IMG/VR virus record: IMGVR_UViG_2698536408_000011
Reading direction: 5' to 3' (one strand)
DNA from: a virus
Taxonomy: Duplodnaviria > Heunggongvirae > Uroviricota > Caudoviricetes
DNA length: 8,001 bases
The translations under genes were made by a program, and so were the position numbers. Position 1 is the first letter of the stretch. Each line of letters starts with the position of its first letter. This document shows positions 1 to 8,001 of the stretch, piece by piece. The notes beneath the pieces were generated by a model. That model was not told the DNA's origin, ran no database searches, and worked only from the letters and a program-made list of their open reading frames with translations.

Positions 1-794
<794 letters not shown>

Positions 795-886: not shown

Positions 887-3067
887 TCATTCTTCCTCTG
901 GATAGCTTGAACTTAAGAGCATATCCTGCGTGAACTGGTCATTAGCTGATTGATTGAAAGTAAAGAAAGATGGTTCATCTGGTCGAACGACAACTTGACC
1001 ACCAAGTGAAACTTTCACTGGCTCCTGAATACGCTTACTCAAAGCACTAATTTCATCCCTCAGACCCTGAATATCTGCACTCGTTAATGCTGAATCTTGC
1101 TTAATGTTGTTTAACTCTGGATGATTGAATCTTGCAATATTCATTGTGGCATTGTTAAACAATTCACCCATTGAACTAAAAATTCTACTCCATCCTTCGT
1201 TAATCATATTCGGTTTATTAGGGTCACCAGAATACACGGGATTAAAGTCACTACCCACACCTACCCCAGACGGATGCATATTAGCGTTTTTGACTACTTC
1301 CTGATTCATAAAATCCAGTGCTTTCTTCAATGCATATAAACCAAGAGTGACGCCTCTGATTTGTGGAATCATTGAAGCTAATGCTAACGCTGTTTCATAA
1401 CCGTCATCAGCATAACCAATTGCAAGAGCACTACCTACACCACCAGCTACACCTTTCAGTTTTCCACCACCTTTACCAGTAGCTACCTGACCAGCCACCT
1501 GATTAGCTCTTGTACCTAACGTTGTGATTGCTCTTGTCAGGTTCATAACCCCTGTAGTAGCACTGAATAGCGTCTTTGCAGATAACGCTATAGCAAGACC
1601 TTTGACGAAGTTGATAAAACCATCACCGACTTCATCAAGTAGTTTTCGTTTAGTGTCATCAAGGCTGTAATAGAACTTCTTAGTCTGTAAAATCCAGCCT
1701 TCAATGGTGTTATTGAATACGCGAATATCATCTACACCAGCTTTAAGCATGTCGATAAGTCCACCGATAGCATCACCAGCGATAGAAGAACTCATCCCCA
1801 TTTCACTAAGCAGGTTACTCAGGCTGGATAAGAAGCCGTTTAGCTCATCCTGTGAACCTGAGAAGATTTTCACCATCGTATCATCCCAATTGTTTGCTAA
1901 CTTACCTAAAGCTGTCTGAGTGCTCTTAGTGACTTCAGCCCAGCCACCCGCTTTATCAATCATCAAGCCCATCTGTTTAGCGACTTTAGGGAGAGTATCA
2001 GCGGAAAGTACCTTCCCGTTTTTCATGGCTGCATCAAGCTCTGTAGCAGTCATACCCAATGCTTCAGCGAATAGCTTAAATGCACCAGCCATACGGTCAC
2101 CTAACTGCCCACGTAATTCCTCAGCCTGAATCTTGCCCTTGCTCGCCATCTGCTCAAATGCTCTCAAAATGCCGTTTAGCTCATCGTTAGAAAGCCCCAT
2201 TAAGCGACTCATAGCCGTTGCATTACCAAATAGCTCCTGTGTCTGTTCCTGTGACATAGAACCCTGAGCACCTGCTGCAAACTTAGCGTAGCTTGATAGC
2301 CCTTCAGAGATATTAAGACCTGTCTTGTCTGCTAAATTTCGAATAAATACCTCAGCTTCAGATGCTTTATCACCAAGTACAAACTTAGCGGCTCTCTGTG
2401 CGGAATCTCGTTTAAGACCTGCATTCATAATGGCCTTGTAAGCGTTAAGAGCACCCATCACAGAGTAAAATGCACCAGATAATTTAATCGCATTGCTTGC
2501 AAGATTATTAAATGCGTCGCTTGTATTGTTAATGCTGGCGGTCTTTGTCTGTGACCTGAGTTTATTCAACGTTTCACGAAGAGATTGATTTAATTTTGCA
2601 AGTTCAGCGTTAAACTTTTCACTTCCAATATTACCAGCCTTACCGCTTAAGCTGTAATACTGTGCTTTAAACATTTTAGCCATCAGCGGATTAATATCAC
2701 CAAGCTTAGACATATTCACGCTATGCGCTGCTGTGATTGCTCTGTTTCCGCTAATTCGTGGTTGCCTTGATTGTTTTGGAGGATTAACAGTGTCATTAAA
2801 TCTGGTGGCAAACTGAAATGCTTTTGTGCTTCTTGCTCTCTGCTCAATCTTGTCAAAGGTCTTATTAAACTTCCTTTCAAGCTGCCCTAAAGAACTTGTC
2901 AGATTGCTGTCAAGTTGCTTGGTATCGACCTTAAACGCTCTATTCAAATTGCGTTCAATTCTTTGTGCTGACTGCAAAGCTGCCTTTTCAACTCTTTGCA
3001 AGCCCTTAATAACGTTTTCACTGAAACTAAGTTCAACGATAAAACTATCAACTGTGAATTTGCTCAT
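887..3067 (-). CDS. Phage tail tape measure protein (726 aa)
   Basis: ATG at 3067..3065 follows AAGAGGTGA with 7-nt spacing. The N-terminal third is alpha-helical and coiled-coil-like. The central region (SRLMGLSNDELNGILRAFEQMASKGKIQAEELRGQLGDRMAGAFKLFAEALGMTATELDAAMKNGKVLSADTLPKV) matches the conserved tape-measure domain pattern (GK-x-x-x-EELR-x-QLG-x-R-x-x-GA). A Gly-rich hydrophobic stretch (GKGGGKLKGVAGGVGSALAIGYA) follows, as in lambda gpH-type proteins. Stop is TGA at 887-889. Confidence 0.85.
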   Translation of the reverse strand: MSKFTVDSFIVELSFSENVIKGLQRVEKAALQSAQRIERNLNRAFKVDTKQLDSNLTSSLGQLERKFNKTFDKIEQRARSTKAFQFATRFNDTVNPPKQSRQPRISGNRAITAAHSVNMSKLGDINPLMAKMFKAQYYSLSGKAGNIGSEKFNAELAKLNQSLRETLNKLRSQTKTASINNTSDAFNNLASNAIKLSGAFYSVMGALNAYKAIMNAGLKRDSAQRAAKFVLGDKASEAEVFIRNLADKTGLNISEGLSSYAKFAAGAQGSMSQEQTQELFGNATAMSRLMGLSNDELNGILRAFEQMASKGKIQAEELRGQLGDRMAGAFKLFAEALGMTATELDAAMKNGKVLSADTLPKVAKQMGLMIDKAGGWAEVTKSTQTALGKLANNWDDTMVKIFSGSQDELNGFLSSLSNLLSEMGMSSSIAGDAIGGLIDMLKAGVDDIRVFNNTIEGWILQTKKFYYSLDDTKRKLLDEVGDGFINFVKGLAIALSAKTLFSATTGVMNLTRAITTLGTRANQVAGQVATGKGGGKLKGVAGGVGSALAIGYADDGYETALALASMIPQIRGVTLGLYALKKALDFMNQEVVKNANMHPSGVGVGSDFNPVYSGDPNKPNMINEGWSRIFSSMGELFNNATMNIARFNHPELNNIKQDSALTSADIQGLRDEISALSKRIQEPVKVSLGGQVVVRPDEPSFFTFNQSANDQFTQDMLLSSSYPEEE

Positions 3068-3099
3068 TCATGTTTCACCTCTTTAAGTGTTCATATACG

Positions 3100-3165: not shown

Positions 3166-3372
3166 TTACCTAACCAGATAATAATTACCATCTTCACCAA
3201 CAATCTGACAATCACTTGGTAATTTATCAAGACACCACTTAGCTATTTTCCTGATTCTATTCTTTTGCTTAGAGGAGGTGAATGATTTGATTCGTTTTGG
3301 TTTGTTGGGTTGTTCTTTCAATCGTTCACTAATTGCTTTAATAAGCTCATAGCGTTCTGTTAAATCAATCAT
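3166..3372 (-). CDS. Hypothetical small basic protein (68 aa)
   Basis: ATG at 3372..3370 follows AAGGTGGTGG. It lies 24 bp downstream of the 236-aa gene. The protein is Lys/Arg-rich (MIDLTERYELIKAISERLKEQPNKPKRIKSF...). I recognise no family. Confidence 0.6.
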   Translation of the reverse strand: MIDLTERYELIKAISERLKEQPNKPKRIKSFTSSKQKNRIRKIAKWCLDKLPSDCQIVGEDGNYYLVR

Positions 3373-3396
3373 TCACCACCACCTTTTAATTATTAA

Positions 3397-4107
3397 TTAA
3401 ATAGCCTTTGCATATTTGCTAGAAATCTTCGTAAGCTGCTCAATATCAGCCTGCATAGCAATCTTCTTAGCATCTTCATATTCTTTCACAAGCTCTTTCA
3501 TAGCCTGAAGCTCTCTTGAGAGATACAACTTAACATTATCAAGTTGCTTGTTACGTGATGCCAAGATGTTCTGTCTAGCAATTTCAGCGAGTTCTTCATC
3601 GCTCTTATTAGTCATGTAAATAAACTGACCAGCACCTCTTGATGCCTTAACCATCTTCACAATTCGATGTCCAGCAGGAAGACTACTAATCACGGCTGCG
3701 ACGTTTTCTTGAAAAGTACCAAAACCATCATTATCTTCGTATTGGTAATAGACAAATGGTTTCTGTGACAATTCATCCTGAATCTCAAATTCTGACGGCT
3801 CAATAGCTGATTGCATCAAGGTAACTTTGCTGTAAGCGTCATCTAATCTAAGGCGCTGTTCTTTCAGCAGTTGGTAATATTTCTTTTCAAGCTCAAGTAA
3901 TGCTTCACTCTTGCAAATATCAGGCATCTCTTGAGGCTCAGGAGACACAAAGATGGTTGTTTTTGGTGACATCTTTAGCGATTGCTCAAGCTCAATACGC
4001 TTGTCATGCTCTTTACGCTGAATAGTGATAGCTGGATGTTCAGTCTGTGGCGACCAGTCACTGAAGCTATCAATCACTTTGCCATTAATGTAAATATCAT
4101 TTGTCAT
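3397..4107 (-). CDS. Hypothetical protein (236 aa from the internal ATG; coiled-coil-rich, acidic)
   Basis: The ORF track starts at a GTG (4155) with no Shine-Dalgarno. The in-frame ATG at 4107..4105 follows GAAGAGGAAAAGCA (GAGG with 6-7 nt spacing) and is preferred. The protein begins MTNDIYINGKVIDSF.... I recognise no catalytic or nucleotide-binding motif. Confidence 0.6.
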   Translation of the reverse strand: MTNDIYINGKVIDSFSDWSPQTEHPAITIQRKEHDKRIELEQSLKMSPKTTIFVSPEPQEMPDICKSEALLELEKKYYQLLKEQRLRLDDAYSKVTLMQSAIEPSEFEIQDELSQKPFVYYQYEDNDGFGTFQENVAAVISSLPAGHRIVKMVKASRGAGQFIYMTNKSDEELAEIARQNILASRNKQLDNVKLYLSRELQAMKELVKEYEDAKKIAMQADIEQLTKISSKYAKAI

Positions 4108-4282
4108 TGCTTTTCCTCTTCTAAGCGGAAGTGTTTCAGTTTTTAAAAAGCACACCTGACAGCCTATCTAAACTTAGAAGAGACTTAAAAGGCGGTTTGC
4201 CAAGTATGCTTTTTAAAAGCTGAATAGCCCTAGATAATTTCTTATAAAGGGCCATTCATAAGGTGAAGAAATTAAAACATCT

Positions 4283-4304
4283 AAAGGATTCAAAAAGGAT
4301 TCAA
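4283..4304. repeat. Tandem direct repeat, 2 x 11 bp (AAAGGATTCAA), in the long intergenic region
   Basis: Read directly at 4283-4293 and 4294-4304. Confidence 0.6.
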
Positions 4305-4330
4305 ACGAATGAACAAGAGTACTTTTCGAG

Positions 4331-4360
4331 ATGACCTCTCAGACTAACCTGAAAGGTCAT
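4331..4360. repeat. Strong inverted repeat / hairpin: 12-bp arms (11/12 match) ATGACCTCTCAG - ACTAAC - CTGAAAGGTCAT
   Basis: Read directly. There is no adjacent U/T tract on either strand, so it is not a canonical intrinsic terminator; an operator or RNA processing/stability element is more likely. Confidence 0.55.
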
Positions 4361-4427
4361 GTAGCGAAAAGCATTGCACCTTTCAGAATAACTATCATTG
4401 ATGTAGAATGATTAATAGTTTAATTCA

Positions 4428-4444
4428 GGAAGAGTTGCTCTTCC
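4428..4444. repeat. Perfect 7-bp inverted repeat with 3-nt loop (GGAAGAG TTG CTCTTCC), ~60 nt downstream of the micro-ORF stop
   Basis: Read directly. No U-tract follows on either strand. Confidence 0.55.
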
Positions 4445-4505
4445 CTATTACCATCATCTCATGCTTAAGGTTATTTGTCAACAGCTTTTTAACAGATTGG
4501 TAACA

Positions 4506-4583
4506 TCAATTCTTATTTACCGTATTACCTACCCAGCAACCAACAAATAACCCTAAAGTCATCCAGAGAATAACGAGTGTCAT
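4506..4583 (-). CDS. Putative 25-aa hydrophobic micro-protein (MTLVILWMTLGLFVGCWVGNTVNKN), translationally coupled to the 101-aa gene
   Basis: Its ATG (4583..4581) overlaps the TAA stop of the upstream gene as TAATG. It has a single membrane-helix-like hydrophobic stretch. It is too short for the ORF track, and a ribosome-binding site would sit inside the upstream coding sequence. Confidence 0.3.
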   Translation of the reverse strand: MTLVILWMTLGLFVGCWVGNTVNKN

Positions 4584-4888
4584 TACATCACCTCGCTGTA
4601 AGGGTTTAATTCATTCTGATAGGTCAAGAATACATTCAGCTTCAATAATTGCTCAGGGCTTAAATCAAGTCGATTGCACTCTTCAATGATAAAGCGCTTA
4701 TTGTATGGGTCTGTTACTTCCAGCTTGTGAACATAGTCACCAAGTTTAATTTCGTTGATTATATGCTTGTCAATATACGTTGACGCTTCAAAACAATGCA
4801 TGAAATAGATATTAAAGCCCGACCTGTTCAGGTCAATCAACCAATTCATGGTTTCTTGGTCAACCATAATTTGCATTGGGTAATTCAT
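4583..4888 (-). CDS. Hypothetical protein (101 aa)
   Basis: ATG at 4888..4886 follows CAGGAAGGA with 8-nt spacing. The protein begins MNYPMQIMVDQETMNWLIDLNRSGF.... I recognise no family. Confidence 0.6.
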   Translation of the reverse strand: MNYPMQIMVDQETMNWLIDLNRSGFNIYFMHCFEASTYIDKHIINEIKLGDYVHKLEVTDPYNKRFIIEECNRLDLSPEQLLKLNVFLTYQNELNPYSEVM

Positions 4889-5034
4889 TTTTAAAATCCT
4901 TCCTGTATCGCATTCTAAGACGTTTTAACCCCTTTTTTAGACCACTTAAGGCGATTCCCTAAGTTACCCTGATTAGGGGCTTAAAAACGTTTCTGGTGCG
5001 TCTGGTAAAGCCTGAGAGATATGTTTTGCTGTTT

Positions 5035-5250
5035 TTAGCTCAAGTCTGAGACTAATAGCCCCATCTGGTGACCGTAGTCTTTTAACCAGCTTTGCTTAAC
5101 CGGAGTCTTCAGAGAATAGTTAGGGGCTGACAAGTGAAGATAGATATCATCTTTGCCGTGGATACTTCCCCATCCTTCGTATAACTCAAGCAAGTTTTCA
5201 AAATAACGAAATGCTTTATTAGTCTGAAGTTGTACTGTGATAGTTTTCAT
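5035..5250 (-). CDS. Hypothetical small protein (71 aa from ATG 5250; alternative ATG at 5262 gives 75 aa)
   Basis: Third gene of a coupled trio. The ATG at 5250..5248 overlaps the TGA stop of the upstream gene as TGATG. The protein begins MKTITVQLQTNKAFRYFENLLELYEGWGS.... No family recognised. Confidence 0.55.
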   Translation of the reverse strand: MKTITVQLQTNKAFRYFENLLELYEGWGSIHGKDDIYLHLSAPNYSLKTPVKQSWLKDYGHQMGLLVSDLS

Positions 5251-5471
5251 CAAGCACCCCATTCAGAAATAAGCTTAATTCCCTGCTCAAGCTGTTCAGG
5301 GTCGTTATAGTCGAGTATTACCAGTGGCTTTAATTCGTGTTTAAGCTGGTGGATTTGAGAGGGTTTTAATCGTTTGTTTGCTTTGAGGGTCACATCTTCA
5401 AATTCAGCATCTGCTAAATTCTGTCTGATTAGGTGGCGGCCAAGTGTGGAATATTGGAACCTATAACACAT
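5250..5471 (-). CDS. Hypothetical small protein (73 aa)
   Basis: The ATG at 5471..5469 overlaps the TAA stop of the 96-aa gene as TAATG and follows GGAGG. The protein begins MCYRFQYSTLGRHLIRQNLADAEF.... No family recognised. Confidence 0.6.
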   Translation of the reverse strand: MCYRFQYSTLGRHLIRQNLADAEFEDVTLKANKRLKPSQIHQLKHELKPLVILDYNDPEQLEQGIKLISEWGA

Positions 5472-5761
5472 TAAACCTCCAATCTATCCGCCAGTTGATG
5501 GACCTTAGCGCTTAACACCTGAATCATTGAGCAACCTGCTACTGCGGACTGTGCTTTGAGTAGTTCCAGTTGGCCCGTTGTGATTCTGATGGCCTTAGAA
5601 CCCTCTGCGACGCCCTTAACGTTATCGAAAGGGCTAAGGTTTACCGACTCTTTTAAAATCTCCCCAACAAGCGCTGTGTGCTTCATATCGGGATATTTGG
5701 CTTTGATTGCTGCCAGTCGTTCAAATGCCTCTGGCAAAAGGCGCGTAACTGTGTGAGTCAT
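5471..5761 (-). CDS. Hypothetical small protein (96 aa), first gene of the coupled trio; possible small DNA-binding regulator
   Basis: The ATG at 5761..5759 follows AAGGAG with 9-nt spacing; the longer ORF from ATG 5791 has no Shine-Dalgarno. The two halves (TVTRLLPEAFERLAAIKAKY... and AIRITTGQLELLKAQSAVAG...) each resemble a strand-helix-helix unit, loosely like ribbon-helix-helix regulators. This is weak and not diagnostic. Confidence 0.55.
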   Translation of the reverse strand: MTHTVTRLLPEAFERLAAIKAKYPDMKHTALVGEILKESVNLSPFDNVKGVAEGSKAIRITTGQLELLKAQSAVAGCSMIQVLSAKVHQLADRLEV

Positions 5762-5797
5762 TGTAAAAATCTCCTTAAATCTCTTACTCATACTACA

Positions 5798-5848
5798 ATC
5801 TTAACATCTATTTAACATATTGTCAGTACCTCATTTACATGATACTAT
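5798..5848. promoter_or_regulatory. Candidate divergent sigma70-type promoters with overlapping -35 hexamers
   Basis: Plus strand: TTGTCA (5820-5825), 17 bp, TACTAT (5843-5848), pointing at the plus-strand small ORF (ATG 5899). Minus strand: CTGACA (rc of 5821-5826), 17 bp, TAAGAT (rc of 5798-5803), pointing at the 96-aa operon (ATG 5761). Hexamer matching by eye only. Confidence 0.35.
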
Positions 5849-5898
5849 GGTTGTAGGGGCTGATACAGGTGCTGTTTCCTTTCACAAAAGGAAAATTA

Positions 5899-6075
5899 AT
5901 GCATGATTTTTTCACAGCAATTATTGAATCTCATCGTTTTAGCTCGTTGGGCTTTGCGGTATTTATTGTGCTATTGGTGTTTTGCGTTATGAATCGAGTC
6001 ATTACAAAAAAGACAAAGCTTACAATTCGACTTAAACTTCTTCGTGTTGAGATAGAGATTTCAGTAAATAAATAG
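5899..6075 (+). CDS. Putative small membrane protein (58 aa; one hydrophobic helix then a basic C-terminus); the only credible plus-strand gene
   Basis: ATG at 5899 follows AAAAGGAAA with ~6-nt spacing (the ORF track starts at an upstream GTG, 5869). The protein is MHDFFTAIIESHRFSSLGFAVFIVLLVFCVMNRVITKKTKLTIRLKLLRVEIEISVNK. It lies in an otherwise non-coding gap and does not overlap any minus-strand gene. It converges on the 98-aa gene with only 9 bp between stop codons. Confidence 0.45.
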   Translation: MHDFFTAIIESHRFSSLGFAVFIVLLVFCVMNRVITKKTKLTIRLKLLRVEIEISVNK

Positions 6076-6084
6076 CTGGTGGCC

Positions 6085-6381
6085 TTACCGGCACTTTCCC
6101 TTGATAATATTGGTGGCCCTCAGATTACCGGGGTCACCGTCTTTTAATCGTAGCTGGTGGACTGAATCCCATAAATCGTAATGATACAGCACCGCAAACT
6201 TCAAAGCGTCAATCTTTAAATCTGTCACATCATCGACGAAATAATAATCCCTCCCTTCTTTCTTCGGTCGAATCCGGTAAACTTCCCCGTGAGTATCTTT
6301 CATCAAGTAACCTTCACGAGAAATGCTGTAACGTCTGAGTAAATAGTCACGGTATTTTCTCTCGCCATTATAAGTTTTCAT
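6085..6381 (-). CDS. Hypothetical protein (98 aa), translationally coupled to the replication initiator gene
   Basis: The ATG at 6381..6379 overlaps the TAA stop of the upstream gene as TAATG and follows GGAGGAATG. The protein begins MKTYNGERKYRDYLLRRYSISREGY.... No family recognised. It sits where a helicase loader would be in lambdoid phages but is far too small. Confidence 0.6.
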   Translation of the reverse strand: MKTYNGERKYRDYLLRRYSISREGYLMKDTHGEVYRIRPKKEGRDYYFVDDVTDLKIDALKFAVLYHYDLWDSVHQLRLKDGDPGNLRATNIIKGKCR

Positions 6382-7334
6382 TAAAACATTCCTCCACCAT
6401 AAACACGTCTGACTTTAACTTTTTCTTTCTTTGGCTCGGTGTGAGTTTTCTTTTTTGGTGTAAAAGTAAAATCATCGTCACTATCATCAAAGTCATCGAG
6501 GTCACTAACCTTGTTCTTTAGCTTCGCATTTCTGAATCTTTCTTTAATTTCTGCTTTACGCTGTTCACGTTTCAATTCCTCTTCAGGGTCTTCTTCATCA
6601 TCAAGGTCAACATCCGGTAATTCATCATCAGTGGCGGGGCACTGTGTGTTTTTATGGTCACTACTAGCAATCACATCAGAGATTTTATCTTCCTTTTTAA
6701 CGACCTCTTTAGCAGCTTCACTATCAAGGTCATCTAAGTCAGATGTTTTAACAGTCTCTTTAATAGCCTCTTCAATACCAAGAGAATCACATTCATGTGA
6801 ATCACAGAGCGAAGCTCCCTTCTTAAAATATTCTTCTTCAAAGTCATCTTCTTTATTGTTATTAATAAGTTCTTTCTTGTTATTACTGTTATTATACGTG
6901 TCAAAGATTTTGACTGACTGAGTAAAAAATTTTGACTCAGTGGGTAAAGAATTTTGACTCAGTGGGTCATCTTTCTTGACTGACTGAGTAACTTTAGACT
7001 CCAGCTTTGCCTTTCTGGCTTCCTTAGCTGTAAGCTCTGTTAAAACCTCCGGTACTTCATCAAGTGAATAAACTTTAATAACACACTGATTGCTTGCAAC
7101 GTTAGTTTTCTTGATTAAACCATGTGCCTCAAGTTGTTTCATACATGCAATCACGGATGTTCTTGTGATTCCAGCATACTGACCAAGATGAGCATATGAA
7201 GGGGTATAATATTGCCCCTTATCGTGATAAAACTTTTGTTCATTCAACATGACAGTGTAAATAATACGGTCGGCAGCTTTAACGCCATTAGTCATCTGAT
7301 AAATACGGTCATCAAACATGTGGAATTTTTCCAT
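6381..7334 (-). CDS. Phage replication initiator / replisome organiser (lambda O-like; 317 aa from the internal ATG) with the origin embedded in its coding sequence
   Basis: The ATG at 7334..7332 follows AAAAAGGAAAATATA; the ORF track start is an upstream TTG at 7391. The N-terminal ~100 aa (MEKFHMFDDRIYQMTNGVKAADRIIYTVMLNEQ...GITRTSVIACMKQLEAHGLIKK) has the winged-helix pattern of phage replication initiator N-domains. Mid-gene iterons and an AT-rich tract follow, then a long acidic low-complexity C-terminal domain (DLDD/DVDLDDEED repeats). Confidence 0.7.
   Translation of the reverse strand: MEKFHMFDDRIYQMTNGVKAADRIIYTVMLNEQKFYHDKGQYYTPSYAHLGQYAGITRTSVIACMKQLEAHGLIKKTNVASNQCVIKVYSLDEVPEVLTELTAKEARKAKLESKVTQSVKKDDPLSQNSLPTESKFFTQSVKIFDTYNNSNNKKELINNNKEDDFEEEYFKKGASLCDSHECDSLGIEEAIKETVKTSDLDDLDSEAAKEVVKKEDKISDVIASSDHKNTQCPATDDELPDVDLDDEEDPEEELKREQRKAEIKERFRNAKLKNKVSDLDDFDDSDDDFTFTPKKKTHTEPKKEKVKVRRVYGGGMF
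6841..6992. other. Putative phage origin of replication (iterons plus adjacent AT-rich unwinding tract) inside the initiator gene
   Basis: The iterons at 6908-6992 are followed, in the direction of gene transcription, by a ~75% AT tract at 6841-6907 (ttctttattgttattaataagttctttcttgttattactgttattatacg). This matches the lambda ori arrangement within gene O. Confidence 0.6.
6908..6992. repeat. Four direct iterons with ~22-bp periodicity, each starting TTGACT
   Basis: TTGACTGACTGAGTAA is identical at 6911-6926 and 6976-6991. ATTTTGACTCAGTGGGT is identical at 6929-6945 and 6951-6967. TTGACT cores sit at 6911, 6933, 6955 and 6976. Confidence 0.75.
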
Positions 7335-7425
7335 TATATTTTCCTTTTTAAAAATAAAACAAAGAAAGGGCTGACCACGTATAGTGACCAACCCCAGAGG
7401 GAGTGAATTAATTAGAAGATGGACT

Positions 7426-7570
7426 GATAAAGGAACTCAGAAGCCTGAGCGATTACGCGAGTATTAACAGCAAAAGGAAAAGCCTTGATTGAATAAGAGG
7501 CCGTGAAAATCTGTCAATACCCTGACGCCTCCCAACGTTGTAACCTCTTAATGTTCTGAGTTCTTTTATC
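7426..7570. repeat. 17-bp inverted repeat pair (16/17 match: GATAAAGGAACTCAGAA / TTCTGAGTTCTTTTATC) flanking a 111-bp segment
   Basis: Read directly: 7426-7442 against the reverse complement of 7554-7570. The enclosed segment contains a consensus TTGACA hexamer (rc of 7512-7517) pointing toward the replication gene, with only weak -10 candidates. Confidence 0.6.
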
Positions 7571-7639
7571 ACCCCATATAAAAACCATAACAGATGTGAT
7601 TATAAATTGCAACAATTATTTCACAGAATAATTACTGAT

Positions 7640-7716: not shown

Positions 7717-7863
7717 TTAGCTCAACCTTTGAGCAATCCTGTATGACGTGCTCAGAGGCATTCTGAGAGCATCTGCAATGCACTTAATGGGTTTTCCTTG
7801 CCTGTATAGTTTTATGAAGCTGTCGAGCGTCTCAGGTGGGTAAATGGTGGGTCTTCCTCTCAA
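7717..7863 (-). CDS. Short helix-turn-helix ORF resembling the C-terminal DNA-binding domain of serine recombinases (invertase/resolvase type); possibly a gene fragment
   Basis: The frame is open from 7896 to the TAA stop at 7719..7717. It has no in-frame ATG near its 5' end; the only candidate start is a TTG at 7863..7861, 1 nt after AGAGGAGG. The translation (..NRGGLRGRPTIYPPETLDSFIKLYRQGKPIKCIADALRMPLSTSYRIAQRLS) shows a Gly-Arg-Pro arm followed by three helices ending in STxYR, as in Hin/Gin-type C-terminal domains. Neither upstream frame reaching the window edge looks like a recombinase catalytic domain. Confidence 0.35.
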   Translation of the reverse strand: MRGRPTIYPPETLDSFIKLYRQGKPIKCIADALRMPLSTSYRIAQRLS

Positions 7864-8001
7864 GCCTCCTCTGTTAATGATGGTTAACGGTAATGCTTAC
7901 GTGGTTCTTTTTTAAAAACAACGACTGCACTAGGAAACGGTGAACGAATAGTAAGCCCGTTATGGCCTGCTGGTGGAAGGTATTTAACTGCACGATGAAG
8001 A

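What the first reader, a model, noticed from the sequence alone, without database searches (positions are those of the whole stretch)
3166..7334. Replication module and ORFan small-gene cluster sit directly upstream of a tail tape measure gene
In lambdoid and most tailed phages the replication genes are separated from the tape measure gene by lysis, terminase, portal, capsid, tail tube and tail-chaperone genes (well over 10 kb). Here an O-like initiator with its origin is followed, on the same strand within 3.3 kb, by seven small genes of unrecognised families and then the tape measure gene. No terminase, capsid, tail tube or chaperone is present. This points to a mosaic or decaying prophage, or a replicating satellite-like element that keeps only part of a tail module. 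The downstream tail gene being frame-interrupted is consistent with decay.
Basis: partly seen in the sequence, partly recalled or inferred. Interest (0 to 1): 0.6.

Follow-up and report, generated by a model that had tools for sequence, protein, structure and literature searches.

The report
Felix O1-linked satellite-like island, decayed copy
The window is an IS-damaged Shigella sonnei copy of a common ~11 kb mobile island of E. coli and relatives that has its own replication origin plus two tail genes and a control region borrowed from virulent Felix O1-type phages, which makes it a likely, so far undescribed, parasite ("satellite") of those phages rather than a decaying lambda-like prophage.

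Summary
On the minus strand, a replication initiator (6381-7334) has four 22-nt iterons and an AT-rich tract inside its own gene. Seven small unrecognised genes follow, then an intact tape measure gene (887-3067). No head, packaging, tube or lysis gene is present.

This is not a lambdoid prophage. The window is Shigella sonnei chromosome. It lies inside a member of a conserved ~11.1 kb island family found in 499 of 5426 complete E. coli genomes. Members sit at three or more chromosomal sites, each with its own large serine recombinase. All nine genes are intact in relatives, with dN/dS of 0.1-0.66.

Only three segments resemble phages, and all three match Ounavirinae (Felix O1-like virulent myoviruses):
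- the Dit-like tail gene (87-95% nt identity);
- the two ends of the tape measure gene;
- a promoter region outside the window.

The initiator's DNA-binding domain and its iterons swap together between relatives. The gene order mirrors the putative E. coli satellites of Barth et al. 2023, but without sequence similarity or capsid genes.

My best reading, at moderate confidence, is a PLE-like satellite of Felix O1-type phages. The S. sonnei copy is degraded: its recombinase is split by an IS, and its Dit and Dam genes carry frameshifting deletions. No experiment supports the satellite function.

The parts
1..36 (.). End of an IS21-family insertion sequence that truncates the island's Dit-like gene
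   Evidence: Window 1-44/50 matches only IS-type sequence on Shigella/E. coli plasmids. Sibling islands align from position 37 onwards. The S. sonnei loci have istA/istB next to it.
37..730 (-). Dit-like tail/baseplate gene (Felix O1 gp68 homologue), a pseudogene in this copy: 74-bp deletion at 582/583 and 3' end cut by the IS
   Evidence: Intact 262-aa sibling proteins hit PF21821 Dit_like at 2e-20 and phrog_3721 at 2e-130. tblastn splits the gene into frames -3 (730-584) and -1 (582-37). It is 87-95% nt identical to phage garuso gene 119 and ~92% identical to many Felixounavirus records over window 271-706.
887..3067 (-). Tape measure protein gene, intact, 726 aa
   Evidence: PF20155 at 2e-21, TIGR02675 at 1.7e-15, phrog_4036 at 4e-93. 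It is 33% aa identical to garuso TMP (735 aa) over residues 1-498. The gene ends are 80% (2933-3076) and 86% (872-915) nt identical to the phage. dN/dS vs siblings is 0.20-0.34.
3166..3372 (-). 68-aa basic protein directly upstream of TMP; function unknown
   Evidence: No family hit. Intact in all 4 siblings at 49-90% aa identity; dN/dS 0.10 for the one comparison not saturated at synonymous sites. A 67-aa gene occupies the same position in the Barth-type satellite but shows no similarity.
3397..4107 (-). 236-aa coiled-coil protein (ORF extends to 4155), named 'transposase' by NCBI without support; candidate assembly or scaffold-like factor (speculative)
4583..4888 (-). 101-aa protein, unknown function, present in only some relatives (accessory slot)
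   Evidence: 91-92% identical in L004 and L005, replaced in L002 and L003. dN/dS 0.15-0.19. No family hit.
5035..5262 (-). 71-75-aa protein, unknown function
   Evidence: Homologues in L005 (99%) and L002 (46%), no stops. Called as 71 aa in S. sonnei genomes.
5250..5471 (-). 73-aa protein, unknown function
   Evidence: Homologues in L005 (99%) and L002 (55%).
5471..5791 (-). 96-106-aa protein, unknown function, core gene of the family
   Evidence: 88-96% identical in all 4 siblings; dN/dS 0.19-0.47. No Pfam, PHROG, NCBIfam or PDB hit.
5899..6075 (+).
   Evidence: tblastn finds it in all four siblings at 44-99% aa identity with an open frame from the Met. Hydropathy peak is 2.5 over 19 residues. 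It is annotated in L004 and L005 and called in S. sonnei.
6085..6381 (-). 98-aa protein immediately downstream of the initiator, core gene, unknown function
   Evidence: 84-88% identical in all 4 siblings; dN/dS 0.13-0.20. No family or PDB hit.
6381..7334 (-). Replication initiator: N-terminal winged-helix DNA-binding domain and acidic C-terminal half
   Evidence: phrog_428 at 2e-10, phrog_8102 at 3e-10, O-like phrog_678 at 4e-7; weak DnaD_N and wHTH Pfam hits below cut-off. The N-domain swaps as a module with the iterons in sibling L003 while the C-half stays conserved.
6849..6987 (-). Origin of replication inside the initiator gene: four 22-nt iterons (6900-6987, consensus ACCCACTGAGTCAAAATTCTTT on the coding strand) followed by an 80% A+T tract (6849-6899)
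   Evidence: the repeat finder family D1; TRF score 95; sequence; A+T content. L003 has a different iteron at the same position.
7717..8001 (-). 3' part of a Dam-type N6-adenine methyltransferase fused to a C-terminal HTH; frameshifted in the window by a 37-bp deletion near 7894
   Evidence: The sibling 220-aa proteins hit PF05869 Dam at 5e-15 plus HTH_7. The window aligns to other S. sonnei genomes with 37 bases missing. Translation shows the frame break.

Best explanation
The window lies inside a degraded Shigella sonnei copy of a family of ~11 kb integrative islands. I interpret these islands as satellites of virulent Felix O1-type (Ounavirinae) myophages, working broadly like Vibrio PLE.

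Shown:
- The intact element is 11,149 bp in E. coli 2012C-4227.
- It is bounded by a short AAAG-type crossover core and carries a large serine recombinase at one end.
- One long co-oriented gene string runs Dam-HTH, initiator with internal iterons, about seven small genes, TMP, Dit.
- Only the TMP, the Dit gene and one intergenic control region resemble any phage, and all three match Ounavirinae.

Inferred:
- On infection by a Felix O1-type phage the island is switched on, possibly through the borrowed phage promoter region.
- It is excised by its serine recombinase.
- It is amplified when the initiator binds its iterons and recruits a replisome through its conserved C-terminal half.
- It is packaged into helper-made particles. 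The tail core of these particles is seeded by the island's own TMP-Dit pair, whose phage-like ends keep them compatible with helper tail parts.
- The coiled-coil 236-aa protein and the small proteins would redirect or inhibit helper functions.

In S. sonnei the recombinase is split by an IS, the Dit gene is frameshifted and truncated, and in this window the Dam gene is frameshifted. This copy is therefore probably immobile. At most it retains replication or interference activity.
For: Family and mobility:
- The same gene order is found at tonB/yciI, inside yecE, and inside wrbA, each with a different large serine recombinase of 507-547 aa carrying Resolvase, Recombinase and Zn_ribbon domains.
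- Comparison with an empty wrbA site gives exact ends, an 11,149-bp element and a ~4-nt core.
- A related element is present in 499 of 5426 complete E. coli genomes, always chromosomal, up to 3 per genome, and highly mosaic.
- Homologues also occur in Salmonella, E. albertii and E. marmotae.

Not decay at family level:
- All nine genes are intact in relatives, with dN/dS of 0.10-0.66.

Link to Felix O1-type phages:
- 213 phage records match the window, nearly all Felixounavirus.
- The Dit gene is 87-95% nt identical to garuso, and the TMP ends 80-86%.
- A third, non-coding segment upstream of the Dam operon matches 253 Ounavirinae records in unannotated DNA. In garuso it lies between genes 95 and 96, which by position I take to be the equivalent of the divergent 40/41 region at the head of the Felix O1 morphogenesis unit (PMC3185647).
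- No other island protein matches the garuso genome.

Replicon:
- Iterons plus an AT-rich tract lie inside the initiator gene.
- The DNA-binding domain and iterons co-vary as a module, as reported for PLE and for the E. coli satellites of Barth et al. (PMC10448857).

Architecture:
- The order integrase, Dit_like, TMP, ~67-aa gene matches the Barth-type putative satellite locus L007.
Against: - There is no experimental evidence of induction, excision, replication or packaging.
- No capsid-remodelling, packaging (terS-like) or helper-interference gene could be recognised.
- The 236-aa protein gives only generic coiled-coil fold matches.
- No phage-encoded nuclease or other protein carries either type of initiator DNA-binding domain, so the arms-race signature seen for PLE and the Barth satellites is absent.
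- IMG/VR hits are provirus-type contigs from genomes, not ~11 kb virome contigs.
- Why a satellite would need its own TMP and Dit is unexplained.
- The borrowed promoter region points away from the long operon, towards the small recombinase or the non-coding right end.
Confidence: 0.55

Rival explanations
1. Non-transmissible (or otherwise transferred) anti-phage defence island. Its TMP and Dit copies act as dominant-negative or decoy subunits that poison tail assembly of Felix O1-type phages. The replicon only amplifies gene dosage on infection, and the island is not packaged.
For: The TMP is only 33% identical to the phage TMP in its body but phage-like at its ends. That pattern would suit a subunit that docks but misfunctions. 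Tail-assembly interference is an established defence strategy carried on mobile elements (PMC11364771). No packaging or capsid gene is recognisable.
Against: No PADLOC hit. The TMP length (726 aa against 735 aa) and the full-length intact Dit in relatives look like functional structural proteins under purifying selection. Distribution over several att sites with different recombinases, and across genera, requires some transfer route. This rival is compatible with satellites, which usually also interfere.
Confidence: 0.2
2. Remnant of a decaying prophage. A once-complete temperate phage lost its head, packaging, tube and lysis genes and kept the replication genes next to the TMP.
For: This copy does carry decay marks: IS21, IS3-family and in some genomes IS1 insertions, a 74-bp deletion in the Dit gene, and a 37-bp deletion in the Dam gene.
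Against: Relatives at three different sites have the same compact 11 kb content with precise ends and intact genes. None of the annotated relatives listed (top 30, a spread of 30) contains capsid or terminase genes. The tail genes derive from strictly virulent Ounavirinae, which have no known prophage state.
Confidence: 0.05
3. Integrative mobilisable element or genomic islet moved by conjugation or transformation, which picked up Felix O1-type DNA by chance recombination during infections. The tail genes are passengers without function.
For: Serine-recombinase islets with a replicon exist in many forms. The element is chromosomal only. No helper-exploitation gene is recognised.
Against: TMP and Dit are core genes present in every relative examined, always in the same place, and under purifying selection. 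Three independent Ounavirinae-derived segments, including a regulatory one, are unlikely to be chance passengers. No relaxase, oriT or mobilisation gene was found.
Confidence: 0.12

Closest known systems
Putative E. coli satellites of phi92-like (Justusliebigvirus) phages described by Barth et al. 2023 (NAR Genom Bioinform, PMC10448857; example locus NZ_CP027387 = L007)
   Same: Both are 10-14 kb chromosomal islands of E. coli. Both run integrase on one strand, then Dit_like 'baseplate' gene, TMP, a ~67-aa gene, more small genes and a replication initiator with swappable DNA-binding domain, all on the other strand. Neither has most tail genes or a terminase. A subset of the Barth elements also uses a serine recombinase.
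   Different: There is no detectable sequence similarity in any protein. No major capsid or decoration gene is found here; the corresponding slot holds a coiled-coil protein. The initiator is not RepA_N by Pfam. No phage nuclease carries its DNA-binding domain. The tail genes derive from Ounavirinae, not Stephanstirmvirinae. Eleven genomes carrying this island are absent from their Table S6.
[quoted passage not shown]
   Same: Both are small islands with a large serine recombinase, an iteron-binding initiator whose DNA-binding domain and origin swap as a module, a long co-oriented string of small unknown genes, and an association with a virulent myophage (PMC6002521, PMC7145576 and PMC10448857 as listed; here).
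   Different: This island is about 11 kb and occurs in Enterobacteriaceae. It carries TMP and Dit homologues of the presumed helper. Its origin lies inside the initiator gene, as in lambda. No RepA_N domain is detected. No functional data exist, and sequence homology to PLE genes was not tested.
Phage lambda O protein and ori-lambda
   Same: The initiator has an N-terminal DNA-binding domain. Four iterons followed by an AT-rich tract lie in the middle of its own coding sequence (the lambda layout is from my own knowledge). PHROG 'replication initiation O-like' families match at 4e-7 to 9e-6.
   Different: There is no Pfam Phage_rep_O hit at E<=0.1. The gene after it is an unrecognised 98-aa protein, not a lambda P-like helicase loader. 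The element is not a lambdoid phage.
Felix O1-type phages (Ounavirinae), genes for gp67 (TMP) and gp68 and the gene 40/41 control region
   Same: The Dit-like gene is 65-83% aa identical and up to 95% nt identical to the phage gene. The TMP has similar length and phage-like ends. A ~60-140-nt control region is shared.
   Different: Nothing else of the 86 kb phage genome is present. The TMP body is only 27-33% identical.

Membership tests
Lambdoid prophage / lambda O-type replication module | Iterons plus AT-rich tract inside the initiator gene | tested here: met
   4 x 22 nt at 6900-6987, and 80% A+T at 6849-6899.
Lambdoid prophage / lambda O-type replication module | Initiator belongs to the Phage_rep_O family and is followed by a P-like or DnaB/DnaC-like loader | tested here: not met
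   No Phage_rep_O hit at E<=0.1; only PHROG O-like hits at 4e-7. The next gene (98 aa) has no match in Pfam, PHROG, NCBIfam or PDB.
Lambdoid prophage / lambda O-type replication module | Relatives are complete temperate phages with lysis, terminase, portal, capsid and tail-tube genes | tested here: not met
   The whole element is 11.1 kb with none of these genes, in four E. coli relatives and in S. sonnei.
PLE-type satellites | Large serine recombinase integrase at the island end | tested here: met
   Relatives carry 507-547-aa proteins with Resolvase, Recombinase and Zn_ribbon_recom domains. In S. sonnei the gene is split by an IS3-family element and lies outside the window.
PLE-type satellites | RepA_N-type initiator with cognate iteron origin, modular between variants | tested here: inconclusive
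   Modular co-variation of the N-domain and iterons is shown, but there is no RepA_N Pfam hit.
PLE-type satellites | Excision, replication and transduction triggered by a virulent helper phage; restriction of the helper | not testable with these tools
   Needs infection experiments. Only indirect links to Ounavirinae are available.
PLE-type satellites | Sequence homology to PLE core genes | not tested
Barth et al. 2023 putative E. coli satellites | Integrase, Dit_like baseplate gene, TMP, small-gene order with initiator on the same strand | tested here: met
   Compare L007 with L002-L005. Both Dit proteins hit PF21821.
Barth et al. 2023 putative E. coli satellites | Major capsid protein and decoration protein genes | tested here: not met
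   No capsid hit in Pfam or PHROG for any island gene. The 236-aa protein in the MCP slot models as a coiled coil, not an HK97 fold.
Barth et al. 2023 putative E. coli satellites | Initiator DNA-binding domain shared with a phage T5orf172 (Odn-like) nuclease | tested here: not met
   tblastn of both initiator types against 50,697 phage records gave no match for one type and one weak unrelated Parageobacillus hit for the other.
Barth et al. 2023 putative E. coli satellites | Sequence similarity to the listed elements, or listing in their Table S6 | tested here: not met
   No BLAST similarity to L007. None of 11 accessions carrying this island appears in the table.
P4-like / PICI / cfPICI satellites | Tyrosine integrase, AlpA or Stl regulators, Pri-Rep or alpha primase, and Sid/Psu/Delta, terS/Ppi or a capsid gene set | tested here: not met
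   None of these families appears in the Pfam, PHROG or NCBIfam scans of the window and sibling genes.
Known anti-phage defence systems (PADLOC-DB 2.0) | Any component protein model | tested here: not met
   No hit at E<=0.01 for the ten window proteins.

The most novel reading that the evidence does not exclude
This island family is a previously undescribed class of satellites that parasitise virulent Felix O1-type phages in E. coli, Shigella and Salmonella. It is present in about 9% of complete E. coli genomes. It builds its own TMP-Dit tail core into helper-made virions, is switched on through a captured phage morphogenesis-unit control region, and limits Felix O1-type phage growth.
Probability: 0.4. 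Interest if true: 0.8.

Novelty: new variant of a known kind. Interest (0 to 1): 0.62.

Why it matters
Felix O1-type phages are classical Salmonella typing phages and are widely used in biocontrol and therapy cocktails. A common chromosomal element that exploits or blocks them would be an unrecognised determinant of their host range. It would sit in roughly one in eleven E. coli genomes and also in Salmonella.

It would also give a second, independent case in E. coli of a satellite that carries its own tape measure and distal-tail genes. That makes the question 'why does a satellite replace the tail core?' directly testable in a tractable host.

For Shigella sonnei, the result simply explains a puzzling locus as an IS-eroded copy.

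Tried and rejected
- PADLOC, Pfam, PHROG and NCBIfam scans of the seven small proteins found nothing.
- PDB sequence searches with the initiator, the 98-aa protein and the 106-aa protein returned only noise.
- An Rfam scan of the window found nothing.
- NCBI's name 'transposase' for this protein has no support in any scan.
- tblastn of two initiator types against phages, looking for Odn-like anti-satellite nucleases, was negative.
- An IMG/VR scan for packaged ~11 kb copies found only provirus-type contigs of 20-53 kb, mostly from isolate genomes. It is uninformative.
- Three accessions from Barth et al. Table S6 could not be fetched. I reached a representative locus through its att-proximal sequence instead.
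- The plasmid collection matched only the IS end.
- A sigma-70 pattern scan of the borrowed control region found no convincing consensus promoter.
- Literature searches for a Felix O1 / Ounavirinae satellite found none.

Full report
**What is in the window**

All substantial ORFs lie on the minus strand. In the direction of transcription they are:
- The 3' part of a Dam-type methyltransferase with a C-terminal HTH (7717 to beyond 8001).
- A replication initiator (ORF 6381-7391, probable start at 7334, 317 aa).
- Seven small genes of 98, 96-106, 73, 71-75, 101, 236 (ORF 252) and 68 aa.
- A 726-aa tape measure protein (TMP) gene (887-3067).
- A broken Dit-like tail gene (37-730).

The TMP call is solid: PF20155 at 2e-21, TIGR02675 at 1.7e-15, phrog_4036 at 4e-93. 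The initiator matches PHROG replication-initiator families (2e-10, with O-like families at 4e-7) and has only sub-threshold winged-helix and DnaD_N Pfam hits.

Inside the initiator gene are four 22-nt direct repeats at 6900-6987 (coding-strand consensus ACCCACTGAGTCAAAATTCTTT). An 80% A+T stretch follows at 6849-6899.

The seven small proteins have no significant match in Pfam, PHROGs, NCBIfam, PADLOC or the PDB.

**Where the window comes from, and the state of this copy**

The TMP protein occurs with identical sequence in thousands of assemblies. Six chromosomes of about 4.8 Mb are 99.97% identical to the window. The organism names and the IS-end matches on S. sonnei plasmids identify them as Shigella sonnei.

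There the element lies between wrbA and ymdF and is riddled with insertion sequences:
- The large serine recombinase is split by an IS3-family element.
- An IS21-family element, whose end is window 1-36, sits between the recombinase and the Dit gene and removes the last six Dit codons.
- Some genomes have an additional IS1 at window ~132-141.

All S. sonnei copies also lack 74 bp at window 582/583 that are present in four E. coli relatives and in phage garuso, which frameshifts the Dit gene. The window alone lacks 37 bp in the Dam-HTH gene compared with other S. sonnei genomes. The 'frame-interrupted tail gene' and 'decay' are therefore real for this copy.

**The family**

A related element is present in 499 of 5426 complete E. 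coli genomes. It is always chromosomal, with up to three copies per genome, and is so mosaic that only one genome covers more than 80% of the query.

Four annotated relatives show one constant layout at three different sites: tonB/yciI, inside yecE (twice) and wrbA/ymdF. Each site type has its own large serine recombinase of 507-547 aa carrying Resolvase, Recombinase and Zn-ribbon domains. The recombinase is on one strand. On the other strand run Dam-HTH (absent in one relative), initiator, small genes, TMP and Dit. In some relatives a small Hin/Pin-type recombinase sits beyond the Dam gene.

Comparison with an empty wrbA site gives exact ends. The element is 11,149 bp and is inserted in about codons 5-8 of wrbA. 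Only an AAAG-type core of about four bases is shared between attL, attR and attB, as expected for a serine recombinase. The S. sonnei copy measures 15,476 bp because of its IS load.

No capsid, terminase, portal, tube, sheath or lysis gene occurs in any relative. All nine window genes are open in the relatives, with dN/dS between 0.10 and 0.66. The small ORFs are thus real genes under purifying selection, and the family is not a decaying prophage. Homologues of the 236-aa protein also occur in Salmonella enterica, E. albertii and E. marmotae.

**Link to Felix O1-type phages**

A megablast of the window against 50,697 phage records hits 213 records, almost all Felixounavirus. I fetched the whole genome of one of them, Escherichia phage garuso, and compared it with the window.
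- Only TMP and Dit match at protein level.
- The Dit gene is 87-95% nt identical (window 271-706).
- The TMP is only 33% aa identical over residues 1-498. However, its 5' end (2933-3076, 80% nt) and 3' end (872-915, 86% nt) are phage-like, and its length (726 aa against 735 aa) is close to the phage's.
- Sibling Dit proteins are 69-83% identical to the phage protein, and three sibling TMPs are 27-33% identical.

By gene order, the garuso TMP gene and the Dit-like gene after it would correspond to Felix O1 gp67 and gp68. The Felix O1 paper proposes gp67 as the TMP and identifies gp67, gp68 and gp69 as virion proteins (PMC3185647).

A third shared segment lies just outside the window, in the intergenic region between Dam and the small recombinase. 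About 60 nt (up to 140 nt at lower identity), including a TTGACAAGG box and a GGATATC inverted repeat, match 253 phage records. All are Ounavirinae or relatives, and the matches fall in unannotated DNA. In garuso this segment lies between the divergent genes 95 and 96. By position I take this to correspond to the Felix O1 gene 40/41 region with promoter P41, from which the unit containing tRNA, packaging and morphogenesis genes is read.

Three independent Ounavirinae-derived segments, one of them regulatory, argue for repeated recombination with, and functional dependence on, this phage group.

**The replicon is modular**

Window, L002, L004 and L005 share the initiator N-terminal domain and the iteron. 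L003 has a strongly divergent N-terminal ~170 residues and a different iteron (ACCCAACCAGAATTTGGTTACCT) at the same place. Its C-terminal half is nearly identical to the window's.

The same domain-plus-origin swapping is described for PLE and for putative E. coli satellites (PMC10448857). Unlike those cases, I found no phage protein carrying either DNA-binding domain.

**The unknown genes**

The 236-aa protein is named 'transposase' by NCBI without any support. It has thousands of near-identical clusters but only about five full-length clusters at 50% identity among 1.8 billion representatives.

It encodes a 58-aa single-pass membrane protein conserved at 44-99% in all four relatives.

**Comparison with known systems**

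The closest description in the literature I could search is section 24 and Figure 8 of Barth et al. 2023. They report 224 putative E. coli satellites of phi92-like phages (Muut is a Justusliebigvirus). These encode an integrase, a baseplate-hub protein, a TMP, capsid and decoration proteins, and a RepA_N initiator.

I fetched a representative locus, L007. Its order (integrase, Dit_like gene, TMP, 67-aa gene, capsid gene and so on) parallels the order found here, and both Dit proteins hit PF21821. The differences are:
- No protein shows BLAST similarity.
- No capsid or decoration gene is present here.
- The initiator is not RepA_N by Pfam.
- Eleven genomes that carry this island are not in their Table S6.

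PLE of Vibrio cholerae shares the large serine recombinase, the modular iteron replicon, the string of small unknown genes and a virulent myophage partner. Membership cannot be claimed.

P4-like, PICI and cfPICI signatures are absent. Six literature searches found no report of a satellite of Felix O1-type phages.

**Interpretation**

The structural facts have high confidence. The window is part of an IS-eroded S. sonnei copy of a widespread, mobile, ~11 kb serine-recombinase island. The island carries a lambda-like iteron replicon and an Ounavirinae-derived TMP-Dit pair.

The functional reading has moderate confidence (0.55). I interpret the island as a satellite that is induced, excised, replicated and packaged during infection by Felix O1-type phages and that contributes its own tail core. 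This rests on architecture, analogy and the three phage-derived segments, not on any experiment.

The main rival (0.2) is a defence island whose TMP and Dit act as assembly poisons. It overlaps with the satellite model, because satellites usually interfere with their helpers. A decaying prophage (0.05) and a mobilisable islet with passenger tail genes (0.12) fit the data poorly.

Open problems are why a satellite should carry a TMP and Dit, how it would be packaged, and why the borrowed control region faces away from the long operon.

Noticed in passing
Outside the window: L010 4470-4690 (S. sonnei), L003 18440-18640, L002 28575-28780, L005 18235-18440; phage garuso 57640-57830 (L008 7640-7830): The intergenic region between the Dam operon and the small recombinase / right end shares ~60-140 nt with 253 Ounavirinae phage records. 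The shared stretch contains a TTGACAAGG box plus a GGATATC inverted repeat. In the phage it lies between two divergent transcription units, which by position I equate with the Felix O1 gene 40/41 'P41' region. In the island it points away from the long operon.
   Followed up: partly
window 5899-6075 (+): Opposite-strand 58-aa protein with one transmembrane helix, conserved at 44-99% aa in all four sibling islands. It could be a constitutively expressed exclusion, toxin or lysis-type factor. Function unknown.
   Followed up: partly
window ~7894 (Dam-HTH gene): The window lacks 37 bp that are present in six other, otherwise 99.97% identical, S. sonnei chromosomes and in the E. coli siblings. This frameshifts the Dam-HTH fusion gene. 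It is either a strain-specific deletion or an assembly error.
   Followed up: partly
window 132-141: Four of six S. sonnei chromosomes carry an extra IS1 insertion here (10-base overlap of the flanking alignments), inside the remnant of the Dit-like gene. It is an IS polymorphism within S. sonnei.
   Followed up: no
window 3397-4155 and homologues (P0001 etc.): NCBI names this coiled-coil protein 'transposase' in hundreds of records. No Pfam, PHROG, NCBIfam or fold evidence supports that name, so it is probably a propagated misannotation.
   Followed up: yes
L003 18560-19540 and L005 18350-19350: The yecE-type islands have about 1 kb at the right end without any ORF longer than 80 aa. The wrbA and tonB types carry a small Hin/Pin-like serine recombinase there. 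The stretch could hold an attachment site, a packaging site or an RNA gene.
   Followed up: no
L005 1-8154: In E. coli JNEC-KY173 the island sits in tandem with a lambdoid prophage (tyrosine integrase, excisionase) that uses the same yecE site. wrbA and yecE are also classical Stx-phage integration sites (from my own knowledge), so the islands compete for or share att regions with temperate phages.
   Followed up: no
window 7419-7577: Imperfect 38-nt inverted repeat (76% complementary, 83 nt apart) in the 380-nt gap between the Dam-HTH gene and the initiator gene. It is a possible regulatory site or terminator and was not analysed.
   Followed up: no
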